A stretch of DNA of 64,000 nucleotides from the human T2T-CHM13v2.0 reference genome, Homo sapiens: NCBI RefSeq assembly GCF_009914755.1, contig NC_060929.1. One strand, 5' to 3'. The notes under the pieces were generated by a model. That model ran no database searches and was not told the DNA's origin. It was given only the letters and a program-made list of their open reading frames with translations. Position numbers and translations under genes: made by a program. The number at the start of each line of letters is the position of its first letter. Position 1 is the stretch's first letter. Positions 36,501 to 39,500 of this stretch are shown here, one piece after another.

Positions 36501-39500
36501 TCATGAATTTTTTGAAGGGTTTTTTGTGTCTCTATTTCCTTCAGTTCTGCTCTGATTTTAGTTATTTCTTGCCTTCTGCTAGCTTTTGAATGTGTTTGCT
36601 CTTGCTTTTCTAGTTATTTTAATTGTGATGTTAGGGTGTCAATTTTGGATCTTTCCTGCTTTCTCTTCTGGGCATTTATTGCTATAAATTTCCCTCTACA
36701 CACTGCTTTGAATGTGTCCCAGAGATTCTGGAATGTTGTGTCTTTGTTCTCTTTGGTTTCAAAGAACATCTTTATTTCTGCCTTCATTTCGTTTTATGTA
36801 CCCAGTAGTCATTCAGGAGCAGGTTGTTCAGTTTCCATGTAGTTGAGCAGTTTTGAGTGAGTTTCTTAATCCTGAGTTCTAGTTTGATTGCACTGTGGTC
36901 TGAGAGACAGTTTCTTATAATTTCTGTTCTTTTACATTTGCTGAGGAGAGCTTTACTTCCAACTATGTGGTCAATTTTGGAATAGGCATGCTGCAGTGCT
37001 GAAAAAAATGTATATTCTGTTGATTTGGGGTGGAGAGTTCTGTAGATGTCTATTAGGTCTGCATGGTGCAGAGCTGAGTTCAATTCCTGGGTATCCTTGT
37101 TAACTTTCTGTCTTGTTGATATGTCTAATGTTGATAGTGGGGTGTTAAAGTCTCCCATTATTATTGTGTGGGAGTCTAAGTCTCTTTGTAGGTCTCTAAG
37201 GACTTGCTTTATGAATCTGGGTGCTCCTGTATTCGGTGCATATATATTTAGGATAGTTAGCTCTTCTTGTTGAATTGATCCCTGTACCATTATGTAATGG
37301 CCTTCTCTGGCTCTTTTGATCTTAGTTGGTTTAAAGTCTGTTTTATCAGAGACTAGGATTGCAACCCCTGCCTTTTTTTGTTTTCCATTGGCTTGGTAGA
37401 TCTTCCTCCATCCTTTTATTTTGAGCCTATGTGTGTCTCTGCATGTGAGATGGGTTTCCTGAATACAGCACACTGATGGGTCTTGACTCTTTATCCAATT
37501 TGCCAGTCTGTGTCTTTTAATTGGAGCATTTAGCCCATTTGCATTTAAAGTTAATATTGTTATGTGTGAATTTGATCCTGTCATTATGATGTTAGCTGGT
37601 TATTTTGCTCGTTAGTTGATGCAGTTTCTTCCTAGCCTTGATGGTCTTTACAATTTGGCATGATTTTGCAGTGGCTGGTACTGGTTGTTCCTTTCCATGT
37701 TTAGTGCTTCCTTCAGGAGCTCTTTTAGGGCAGGCCTGGTGGTGACAAAATCTCTCAGCATTTGCTTCTCTGTAAAGTATTTTATTTCTCCTTCACTTAT
37801 GAAGCTTAGTTTGGCTGGATATTAAATTCTGGGTTGAAAATTCTTTTCTTTAAGAATGTTGAATATTGGAAAGGACATGCACACCAAGAACCCATCTGTA
37901 CATCACCATCATCAAAGACCAAAAGTAGATAAAACCACAAAGATGGGGAAAAAACAGAGCAGAAAAACTGGAAACTCTAAAAAGCAGAGCACCTCTCCTC
38001 CTTCAAAGGAACGCAGTTCCTCACCAGTAACGGAACAAAGCTGGACAGAGAATGACTTTGATGAGTTGAGAGAAGAAGGCTTCAGATGATCAAACTACTA
38101 CGAGCTACAGGAGGAAATTCAAACCAAAGACAAAGAAGTTAAAAACTTTGAAAAAAATTTAGCTGAATGTATAACTAGAATAACCAATACAGAGTACAAG
38201 CCACTCTCTTCTGGCTTGTAGGGTTTCTGCCAAGAGATCCGCTGTTAGTCTGATGGGCTTCCCTTTGTGGGTAACCCGACCTTTCTCTCTGGCTGCCCTT
38301 AACATTATTTCCTTCAACTTTGGTGAATCTGACAATTATGTGTCTTGGAGTTGCTCTTCTCGAGGAGTATCTTTGGGGTGTTCTCTGTATTTCCTGAATC
38401 TGAATGTTGGCCTGCCTTGCTAGATTGGGGAAGTTCTCCTGGATAATATCCTGCAGAGTGTTTTCCAACTGGGTTCCATTCTCCCCGTCAGTTTCAGGTA
38501 CACCAATCAGACGTAGATTTGGTCTTTTCACATAGTCCCATATTTCTTGGAGGCTTTGTTCGTTTCTTTTTATTCTTTTTTCTCTAAACTTCCCTTCTCG
38601 CTTCATTTCATTCATTTCATCTTCCATCACTGATAGCCTTTCTTCCAGTTGATCGCATCAGCTCCTGAGGTTTCTGCATTCTTCATGTAGTTCTCGAGCC
38701 TTGGCTTTCAGCTCCATCAGCTCCTTTAAGCACTTCTCTGTATTGGTTATTCTAGTTATACATTCAGCTAAATTTTTTTCAAAGTTTTTAACTTCTTTGT
38801 CTTTGGTTTGAATTTCCTCCTGTAGCTCGTAGTAGTTTGATCATCTGAAGCCTTCTTCTCTCAACTCATCAAAGTCATTCTCTGTCCAGCTTTGTTCCGT
38901 TACTGGTGAGGAACTGCGTTCCTTTGAAGGAGGAGAGGTGCTCTGCTTTTTAGAGTTTCCAGTTTTTCTGCTCTGTTTTTTCCCCATCTTTGTGGTTTTA
39001 TCTACTTTTGGTCTTTGATGATGGTGATGTACAGATGGGTTCTTGGTGTGCATGTCCTTTCTGTTTGTTAGTTTTCCTTCTAACAGACAGGACCCTCAGC
39101 TGCAGGTCTGTTGGAGTTTGCTAGAGGTCCACTCCAGACCCTGTTTGCCTGGGTATCAGCAGCGCTGGCTGCAGAACAGCGGATTTTCACGAACCGCGAA
39201 TGCTGCTGTCTGATCGTTCCTCTGGAAGATTTGTCTCAGAGGAGTACCCGGCTGTGTGAGGTGTCAGTCTGCCCCTACTGGGTGGTGCCTCCCAGTTAGG
39301 CTGCTCGGGGGTCAGGAGTCAGGGACCCACTTGAGGAGGCAGTCTGCCCATTCTCAGATCTCAAGTTGCGTGCTGGGAGAACCACTGCTCTCTTCAAAGC
39401 TGTCAGACGGGGACATTTAAGTCTGCAGAGGTTACTGCTGTCTTTTTGTTTGTCTGTGCCCTGCCCCCAGAGATGGAGCCTACAGAGGCAGGCAGGCCTC

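What the first reader, a model, noticed from the sequence alone, without database searches (positions are those of the whole stretch)
37861..39061. Perfect 325-bp inverted self-copy inside a full-length L1: a long dsRNA hairpin in FAM172A pre-mRNA
Seen: 37870-38194 is the reverse complement of 38736-39060 (L1 5'UTR end plus ORF1 start), inserted into the 3' part of ORF1, with no mismatch that I could find. Both arms share private changes versus the recalled L1PA consensus, including the premature ORF1 stop in agatgatca, while the rest of the element and even its TSD have decayed. Inference: the copy arose long after insertion, or the arms are homogenised by intra-palindrome gene conversion. 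This is not ordinary twin priming, because the element is full length with an intact TSD and the segment is duplicated rather than simply flipped. Predictions: a 325-bp perfect stem with a 541-nt loop in the pre-mRNA (ADAR/MDA5/Dicer substrate) and a recurrently flipping spacer. Speculatively, it could be a source of siRNAs against L1 5'UTR/ORF1, located in a gene whose product is reported to bind AGO2.
Basis: partly seen in the sequence, partly recalled or inferred. Interest (0 to 1): 0.8.

Follow-up and report, generated by a model that had tools for sequence, protein, structure and literature searches.

The report
Inverted self-copy inside an old L1
A decayed L1 retrotransposon in an intron of ARB2A carries a perfect 326-base backwards copy of its own start, most likely a fairly recent DNA copying accident of a known kind, which would make a long RNA hairpin but has no shown function.

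Summary
Window 37869-38194 is the exact reverse complement of 38736-39061: 326 nt, 100%, 541-nt spacer.

The host is a full-length but dead L1 on the minus strand (about 33534-40021), sense to ARB2A, with a 15/16 TSD.

The copy replaces 3 nt of ORF1. It has no poly(A) and no TSD of its own. Its junctions show 0-2 nt of microhomology, and one carries a 6-nt snap-back filler.

Against 26 paralogs, the copied segment has 6-7 changes private to this element, and both arms carry all of them. Arms as old as the element should differ at about 10-14 sites. They differ at none. So the copy was made, or last homogenised, in roughly the last quarter of the element's life.

Both junctions are unique in CHM13.

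Best reading: a post-insertion template-switch inverted duplication. This is a known class of human structural variant, median 284 bp (PMC12350158). It yields one of the about 2,000 long, highly paired predicted dsRNAs in the human genome (PMC11838218). The siRNA/AGO2 idea has no support. The "private" stop codon is a recurrent CpG change, present in 12 of 26 paralogs. Ape and GRCh38 data were out of reach.

The parts
33518..33533 (.). Target-site duplication, copy next to the L1 3' end (ACATTGCATGTATTTT)
   Evidence: Read. Matches 40022-40037 at 15 of 16 positions.
33534..40021 (-). Full-length, inactive L1 (about 6,488 nt including the insert), sense to ARB2A and intronic
   Evidence: 5' end and degenerate A-rich 3' end read. 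Pfam hits: Tnp_22_trimer, Transposase_22, Tnp_22_dsRBD, Exo_endo_phos, RVT_1. Stops and at least 4 frame changes. Boundaries are good to about 1 nt because the T run blurs the TSD edge.
40022..40037 (.). Target-site duplication, copy next to the L1 5' end (ACATTACATGTATTTT)
38736..39061 (-). Native arm (template): last 74 nt of the L1 5'UTR plus ORF1 codons 1-84, including the TGA at codon 49 (38841-38843)
   Evidence: Continuous with native L1 on both sides in the alignment to 6 paralogs.
38201..38735 (-). Native ORF1 sequence that forms most of the 541-nt spacer or loop, in native orientation
   Evidence: trimerisation and RBD-like domains.
38195..38200 (.). 6-nt filler TACAAG at the junction between spacer and copy. 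It is the reverse complement of 38215-38220.
   Evidence: Chance of such a nearby reverse-complement match for a random 6-mer is 2.6%.
38201..38220 (.). Snap-back site: CC (38201-02), a 10-nt loop, then GGCTTGTA (38213-20). The last is the template of the filler, giving an 8-bp mini-hairpin with the filler plus CC.
   Evidence: Read. The native sequence at this site is seen in 6 of 6 paralogs.
37869..38194 (+). Inverted copy of 38736-39061, inserted into the ORF1 C-terminal domain in place of 3 nt (GGG in sense). The G at 37869 is 1 nt of microhomology. The mirrored TGA is at 38087-38089.
   Evidence: In 80-nt junction searches of CHM13, only the locus itself spans each junction (1 of 40 scored matches each).

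Best explanation
This is a post-insertion, local, templated inverted duplication inside an old, already dead L1. A DNA 3' end at a break or stalled fork in ORF1 switched template onto the same-polarity strand. It did this once over 6 nt, about 10 nt away (a snap-back). It did it once over 325-326 nt, starting 541 nt away at the 5'UTR/ORF1 boundary. It then rejoined the original track 3 nt further on. The result is 332 nt inserted, 3 nt lost, and no poly(A) or TSD. The event is evolutionarily recent: it falls within about the last quarter of the element's age, which probably places it on the human lineage. That is why the arms are still identical. Because the L1 is sense to ARB2A, the intron RNA can fold into a perfect 326-bp stem with a 541-nt loop. 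This would be a strong ADAR substrate that is removed with the intron. It is most likely a neutral by-product with no function.

Shown: the structure, the junctions, the shared private changes, uniqueness in CHM13 and the predicted fold. Inferred: the template-switch mechanism, recency, and the fate of the RNA.
For: - Perfect 326-nt inverted repeat with a 541-nt spacer.
- In the CHM13 search only the two arms match at 100%; the next best L1 copies are at 97% or less. The tool scored 40 of 2,797 candidates. The template was therefore the neighbouring arm.
- Against 6 paralogs, native ...GTGG-GGG-CCAATATTC... has GGG replaced by the filler plus the copy. Junction microhomologies are 2, 0 and 1 nt.
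- The filler is the reverse complement of sequence 14 nt away. The chance for a random 6-mer is 2.6%.
- Private substitutions against 26 paralogs: arm 6 of 326 strictly private, 7 counting one base present in 2 of 26; upstream 5'UTR 13 of 700; spacer 6 of 535. The arm has aged like its surroundings.
- With 6-7 private changes per arm, arms as old as the element should differ at 12-14 sites. P(0) is 6e-6 to 8e-7. The 95% bound on the time since duplication is 21-25% of the element's age.
- Both junctions are unique in CHM13, and 0 of 26 paralog loci have an inverted self-match of 50 nt or more.
- PMC12350158 (passages): inverted duplications are the commonest non-mobile-element inversion class in 1,019 humans. 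There are 277 events with a median of 284 bp, mostly with 1-15 bp of microhomology, and a replicative origin is proposed.
- Foldback-templated inverted insertions at breaks, and polymerase theta snap-back synthesis, are described in PMC11724301 and PMC4912351 (abstracts in the listing only).
- The fold of the minus-strand RNA pairs all 326 positions, at -738.6 kcal/mol.
Against: - Recency rests on assuming no gene conversion between the arms. Conversion would give the same present-day sequence.
- No second human assembly and no ape ortholog could be examined, so presence or absence elsewhere is unknown.
- Templated insertions attributed to polymerase theta or foldback repair in the papers listed are mostly tens of bases, not 326.
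- One junction has no microhomology, and the filler match has a 2.6% chance probability, which is suggestive rather than decisive.
- The paralogs were chosen by similarity to the arm (the top 26 of the 38 non-self matches scored), which biases counts of private changes.
- The lack of function is an inference. No RNA data were available.
Confidence: 0.6

Rival explanations
1. The inverted duplication is old, made at or soon after L1 insertion or at least before the human-chimpanzee split. The arms have been kept identical by intra-palindrome gene conversion, possibly with recurrent flipping of the 541-nt spacer.
For: The arms are identical although the segment carries 6-7 element-private changes. 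This is exactly what concerted evolution gives. Inverted-repeat-mediated recurrent inversion and gene conversion are documented for human inverted repeats (PMC3961182, title and abstract in the listing only). Conversion in large sex-chromosome palindromes is recalled knowledge.
Against: No direct evidence exists. It needs a conversion rate well above the point-mutation rate for arms of only 326 nt. The spacer is in the native orientation and the arms are perfect right up to both novel junctions, with no erosion, which a young event explains more simply. Polymorphic young inverted duplications of this size are common.
Confidence: 0.22
2. The structure and timing are the same, but the template was RNA. 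A broken sense-strand 3' end was extended by a reverse transcriptase (L1 ORF2p, endonuclease-independent, or polymerase theta) copying the locus's own sense transcript, either the ARB2A pre-mRNA or an L1 read-out. That automatically yields an antisense copy carrying the local private changes.
For: A sense RNA copied from a sense-strand 3' end gives exactly the observed orientation. There is no poly(A) and no TSD, the piece is truncated at both ends, and microhomology is 0-2 nt. These features match those quoted for non-canonical insertions in PMC12350158. The L1 is sense to the gene, so such RNA exists wherever ARB2A is transcribed (hub annotation).
Against: Sequence alone cannot separate it from DNA templating. 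The 6-nt snap-back filler is more simply DNA-templated. RNA-templated repair would more often pick abundant active-L1 RNA, which would not carry this element's 7 private bases.
Confidence: 0.08
3. It was formed during the original retrotransposition, by twin priming or reverse-transcriptase template jumping, with no later homogenisation.
For: L1 insertions do often carry inversions, some with junction duplications: 1,047 twin-priming calls in PMC12350158.
Against: The element is full length with the inverted piece internal, not at the 5' end. The copied L1 positions (about 962-1287) are not adjacent to the insertion point (about 1828). There are 0 arm differences where 12-14 are expected, with P below 1e-5.
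Confidence: 0.01
4. It is an assembly or sequencing artefact of T2T-CHM13, or a cell-line-private mutation of no population relevance.
For: Only one assembly was examined. Palindromic chimeras are known artefacts of hairpin-adapter libraries (recalled, not checked).
Against: The structure is not a simple fold-back. It has a 541-nt spacer in native orientation, a 3-nt deletion and a templated 6-nt filler, which are typical of biological junctions. The whole feature is 1.2 kb, far shorter than the reads used for this assembly (recalled).
Confidence: 0.04
5. The hairpin is functional. It could be a source of L1-directed endo-siRNAs, or a regulated dsRNA signal (ADAR/MDA5/PKR) tied to the AGO2-binding product of ARB2A.
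For: The predicted duplex is perfect over 326 bp. Of the arm's 306 21-mers, 185 occur in at least one of 26 other L1 loci, so small RNAs could act in trans. FAM172A-AGO2 binding is reported (listing).
Against: The stem is intronic, so it is removed in the nucleus. Long, highly paired dsRNAs are reported as mostly unedited or untranscribed and as selected against in genes (PMC11838218 section 10; PMC7006430 passages). The locus is not among the expressed long perfect human structures in the supplements of PMC7006430 (0 occurrences of FAM172A). A feature that may be younger than the species split has had little time for selection. There are no small-RNA or editing data.
Confidence: 0.04

Closest known systems
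Small inverted duplications, a class of human structural variant (277 events, median 284 bp, in 1,019 long-read genomes; PMC12350158)
   Same: A few hundred bases copied in reverse orientation next to their source; junctions blunt or with 1-2 nt of microhomology; no retrotransposition hallmarks; a replicative or template-switch origin proposed.
   Different: Here it is seen in one reference assembly only, and its population frequency is unknown. It lies inside an L1 and 541 nt from its source. It shows a second, 6-nt nested snap-back.
L1 twin-priming inversions (Ostertag and Kazazian 2001, cited in PMC12350158)
   Same: An inverted L1 segment within an L1 insertion; junctions may carry small duplications.
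   Different: A twin-priming inversion sits at the 5' end of a truncated insertion, uses adjacent parts of one RNA and dates from insertion. Here the element is full length, the inverted piece is internal and duplicated, and it is much younger than the element.
Foldback or snap-back templated insertions at DNA breaks (polymerase theta end joining, MMBIR/FoSTeS)
   Same: Reverse-complement templated filler primed from 0-2 nt of microhomology; serial template switches.
   Different: Typical templated inserts in the listed papers are about 5-34 nt (PMC11724301 abstract). The main segment here is 326 nt.
Long, highly paired intramolecular dsRNAs of the human genome (over 300 bp and over 96% paired; 2,018 predicted; PMC11838218; also PMC7006430)
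   Same: Formed between inverted LINE sequence and longer than 300 bp. This one is 100% paired and intronic, so it is removed by splicing.
   Different: Most catalogued cases pair two separate LINE insertions, and 88% are intergenic. This one is a self-copy within a single element inside a gene. Whether it is in that catalogue could not be checked, because the supplements were closed.
Gene-converting palindromes (sex-chromosome ampliconic palindromes; recalled)
   Same: Arms identical despite age; a spacer that can flip.
   Different: Those arms are kilobases to megabases long, with conversion shown across species. Here the arms are 326 nt and conversion is not shown.

Membership tests
Small inverted duplication SV (template-switch type) | The inserted segment is the reverse complement of nearby sequence on the same chromosome | tested here: met
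   Only the two arms match at 100% in CHM13.
Small inverted duplication SV (template-switch type) | Size of tens to hundreds of bases (median 284 bp in PMC12350158) | tested here: met
   325-326 nt; literature value.
Small inverted duplication SV (template-switch type) | Breakpoints blunt or with short microhomology, and no long homology | tested here: met
   Microhomologies of 2, 0 and 1 nt, a 3-nt deletion and a 6-nt templated filler.
Small inverted duplication SV (template-switch type) | Derived state: absent from outgroups or from other haplotypes | not testable with these tools
   Only CHM13 is held (one search states that it has no relatives here).
L1 twin-priming inversion | Inverted segment at the 5' end of a 5'-truncated insertion, abutting the TSD | tested here: not met
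   The element reaches the L1 5' end next to the TSD at 40021/40022. The inverted piece is internal, at 37869-38194.
L1 twin-priming inversion | Inverted and direct parts are adjacent stretches of one RNA and of equal age | tested here: not met
   L1 positions about 962-1287 were copied to about 1828 and are also present in direct orientation. There are 0 arm differences against 12-14 expected.
Independent L1 (TPRT) insertion into the L1 | L1 3' end with poly(A), and a TSD flanking the insert | tested here: not met
   The insert is 5'UTR/ORF1 sequence only, with no A tract. The target lost 3 nt instead of being duplicated.
Gene-converting palindrome | Arm identity far higher than the age of the sequence predicts | tested here: inconclusive
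   Identity is 100% with 6-7 private changes, but a young duplication explains this equally well.
Gene-converting palindrome | Concerted evolution of the arms across species or haplotypes | not testable with these tools
   No ortholog or second haplotype is available.
Long, highly paired dsRNA (over 300 bp, over 96% paired; PMC11838218) | Stem longer than 300 bp with more than 96% of bases paired, on one transcript | tested here: met
   326 bp, 100% paired, with both arms in the ARB2A intron on the transcribed strand (hub annotation).
Long, highly paired dsRNA (over 300 bp, over 96% paired; PMC11838218) | A-to-I editing as evidence that the duplex forms in vivo | not testable with these tools
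   No RNA-seq data are available here.
Hairpin-RNA endo-siRNA locus | 21-23-nt small RNAs from both arms, dependent on Dicer | not testable with these tools
   No small-RNA data. Only the sequence potential was shown.

The most novel reading that the evidence does not exclude
The inverted copy is not a young accident. It is a miniature self-homogenising palindrome, with arms kept identical by gene conversion and a flipping spacer. Its perfect 326-bp intronic hairpin would be processed into hyper-edited RNA or L1-directed small RNAs in cells that express ARB2A, or would become an MDA5/PKR ligand when the intron is retained or ADAR1 is lost.
Probability: 0.05. Interest if true: 0.65.

Novelty: new member of a known kind. 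Interest (0 to 1): 0.3.

Why it matters
As it stands, this is a clean, sequence-resolved example of a known mutational class. A templated inverted duplication has an internal clock here: the host L1's private mutations show that the event is much younger than the element.

It also creates one of the rarer objects in human genes, a perfectly paired dsRNA stem longer than 300 bp on a pre-mRNA. If it is polymorphic or human-specific, it would be a natural present/absent test case. It could show how cells handle perfect intronic dsRNA (ADAR hyper-editing, nuclear retention, leakage to MDA5/PKR). It could also show how fast short inverted repeats convert or flip.

None of this is surprising to a specialist, and no function is indicated.

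Tried and rejected
- **Earlier findings of the scan.** These were closed. One search, sent in the same turn, failed for a missing field and was not pursued.
- **Locus-level look-up in the 1,019-genome SV paper.** The one readable supplement (xlsx) had no occurrence of 'inverted duplication', 'INVDUP', 'FAM172A' or 'ARB2A'. Its hits to '9433' and '9434' were sample statistics, not coordinates. The PDF supplements could not be read.
- **Barak et al. supplements.** 0 occurrences of FAM172A or its Ensembl id. This does not show absence from GRCh38, because those files are summaries.
- **Twin priming, independent L1 insertion and origin at insertion without conversion.** All considered and rejected (see the membership tests).
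- **The first count of private changes in the spacer.** The 12 included 4 positions that are really the junction filler. This was corrected by ending the spacer at 38201.
- **Subfamily naming.** An L1PA3/L1PA4-like label and absolute ages rest on recalled rates and literature. They were not tested, because no repeat library is available.
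Full report
**Observation.**
- The repeat finder on 33000-40500 reports a single inverted pair: arms 37869-38194 and 38736-39061, 326 nt, 100% complementary, 541 nt apart. 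A script confirmed exact reverse-complement identity and that neither end extends.
- Over the whole window this is the only perfect long inverted repeat. Of 40 pairs of 150 nt or more, the other 24 listed are 73-89% complementary and lie 628 to 56,004 nt apart.
- A 326-nt perfect match cannot be chance.

**The host element.**
- The sequence from about 33534 to 40021 is one L1 on the minus strand. Its 5' end abuts ACATTACATGTATTTT (40022-40037). Its degenerate A-rich 3' end abuts ACATTGCATGTATTTT (33518-33533). That is a 16-nt target-site duplication matching at 15 of 16.
- Pfam finds the L1 ORF1p trimerisation and RBD-like domains at 38313-38657. It finds the C-terminal dsRBD-like domain (profile positions 28-65 of 65) at 37651-37821. 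Exo_endo_phos and RVT_1 lie further down. In all, 4 of the 5 submitted pieces had hits; the ORF2 C-terminal piece had none.
- The element is dead. ORF1 has stops at codons 49 and 110. The ORF2 reading path changes frame at least four times, with further stops.
- ARB2A is on the minus strand (hub annotation), so the L1 is sense to the gene. It lies in the intron between the exons at 63505-63723 and 6224-6343.

**Anatomy of the duplication.**
- In L1 sense coordinates, the native arm is positions about 962-1287: the last 74 nt of the 5'UTR plus ORF1 codons 1-84. The spacer is native ORF1 up to about 1822. The reverse-complement copy follows.
- Aligned with six paralogs, the native site reads ...AGAGAGTGG GGG CCAATATTC... 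in 6 of 6, allowing single substitutions in two of them. In this element the GGG is replaced by 6 nt of filler plus the 325-326-nt copy.
- The filler (window 38195-38200, TACAAG) is the reverse complement of 38215-38220. Together with CC/GG it forms an 8-bp hairpin with a 10-nt loop, which is the signature of a snap-back priming step. A random 6-mer has a 2.6% chance of such a match within 60 nt of the site, so this is suggestive, not proof.
- Junction microhomologies are 2 nt (CC/GG), 0 nt and 1 nt (G at 37869).
- There is no poly(A), no L1 3' end and no duplication of the target. This is not a second retrotransposition.
- It is not twin priming either. The element is full length, the inverted piece is internal, and the same piece is also present in direct orientation.

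**Source of the copy.**
- Searching CHM13 with the arm gave the two arms at 100%. All other scored copies were at 95-97%. The tool scored 40 of 2,797 candidates.
- 80-nt probes across each novel junction were spanned only by the locus itself (1 of 40 scored matches each). The other matches covered only one half of the probe, ending within 3 nt of the junction.
- None of 26 paralog loci has an inverted self-match of 50 nt or more.
- The template was therefore the neighbouring arm, or its transcript. The structure is not inherited from an L1 lineage.

**Timing.**
- I compared the element with 26 paralogs. These were the 6 loci returned plus the next 20 by rank, fetched. The 12 lower-ranked scored matches were not fetched. 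The paralogs were chosen for similarity to the arm, which makes private counts conservative.
- Bases found in none of the 26: 13 of 700 in the upstream 5'UTR, 6 of 326 in the arm, and 6 of 535 in the spacer. Allowing up to 2 sharers gives 21, 7 and 7. An earlier 6-paralog count gave about 2% for the first 969 nt downstream as well. The arm has therefore aged like the rest of the element.
- All of its private changes are present in both arms. If the two arms had evolved separately since insertion, they should differ at about 12-14 sites. They differ at 0, with P about 6e-6 to 8e-7. The 95% upper bound on the time since duplication or last homogenisation is 21-25% of the element's age.
- With recalled primate substitution rates, private divergence of 1.6-2.2% suggests an element roughly 10-25 Myr old. 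That puts the event within the last few Myr. These absolute figures are inference, not tool results.
At that CpG position, 12 of 26 paralogs also have T.

**Mechanism.**
- The simplest account is serial template switching of a 3' end onto the same-polarity strand. The first switch covered 6 nt and the second 325-326 nt. The end then returned to the original template 3 nt downstream.
- The same three switches can be read from either side of the break.
- This matches a described class. In 1,019 long-read human genomes, inverted duplications were the commonest inversion-type variant outside mobile-element insertions. There were 277 events with a median of 284 bp. They rarely showed breakpoint homology and mostly showed 1-15 bp of microhomology, and the authors propose a replicative origin (PMC12350158, passages read).
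- Foldback-templated inverted insertions and polymerase theta snap-back synthesis are described in PMC11724301 and PMC4912351. For these I saw only the abstracts in the listing.
- A variant I cannot exclude is reverse transcription of the locus's own sense transcript from a broken sense-strand end. That gives the same orientation and the same private bases.

**The main rival is an older duplication whose arms are kept identical by gene conversion.**
- It predicts the same present-day sequence. Only orthologous or other-haplotype sequence can separate the two readings, and none is held here.
- I weight it lower for three reasons. The arms are short. The identity is perfect up to both novel junctions. 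Young events of this class are demonstrably frequent.

**RNA consequences.**
- Folded as minus-strand RNA, 37850-39080 forms the complete 326-bp stem at -738.6 kcal/mol. There is no shuffle control at this length.
- That puts it in the class of long (over 300 bp), highly paired (over 96%) intramolecular dsRNAs. dsRNAscan predicts 2,018 of these in the human genome. Most form between inverted LINE elements, 88% are intergenic and 74% are unedited (PMC11838218, section 10 read).
- Barak et al. report that such structures are nearly absent from mRNAs but present, though depleted, in pre-mRNAs (PMC7006430, passages).
- Being intronic, the stem should be removed in the nucleus. Hyper-editing by ADAR is expected from general knowledge but was not tested.
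- Of the arm's 306 21-mers, 185 occur in at least one of the 26 paralog loci. Any small RNAs could therefore match other old L1 copies. There is no evidence that any are made.
- FAM172A/ARB2A binding to AGO2 is in print (PMC10205598, listing). Nothing connects that protein function to a hairpin in one of the gene's introns.

**Verdict.** The inference of 'late copy or conversion, not twin priming' is sound. The functional speculation is unsupported. The feature is a new example of a known kind of structural variant and of a known kind of predicted dsRNA. It is interesting mainly as a possible human-specific or polymorphic natural test case.

**What remains open.** Still unknown are its presence in GRCh38, in other haplotypes and in apes, the spacer orientation elsewhere, and RNA editing or small RNAs. 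The supplementary tables of PMC11838218 (closed) and the PDF supplements of PMC12350158 (unreadable here) may already list this locus.

Noticed in passing
window 38841-38843 (and its mirror at 38087-38089): The ORF1 codon-49 stop (TGA) sits at a CpG position where 12 of 26 other L1 copies also have T, 12 have C and 2 have G. It is a recurrent independent decay mutation, not a lineage marker.
   Followed up: yes
window 54028-54211 and 54840-55023: A second closely spaced inverted repeat in the same intron: 184 nt, 84% complementary, 628 nt apart. By size and its many window-wide partners it looks like an inverted Alu pair. That label is recalled and not tested. It would be an ordinary ADAR-type duplex.
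   Followed up: no
L020 (G000:C15:88940821-88942546): One of the 26 paralog L1 loci has a 48-nt inverted self-match; the other 25 have none. It was not examined further.
   Followed up: no
window 33534-40021: The L1 keeps 69 CpGs (observed/expected 0.24) and a complete 5' end next to its TSD, although both ORFs are broken. Whether its 5'UTR promoter could still drive a transcript containing the hairpin was not examined.
   Followed up: no
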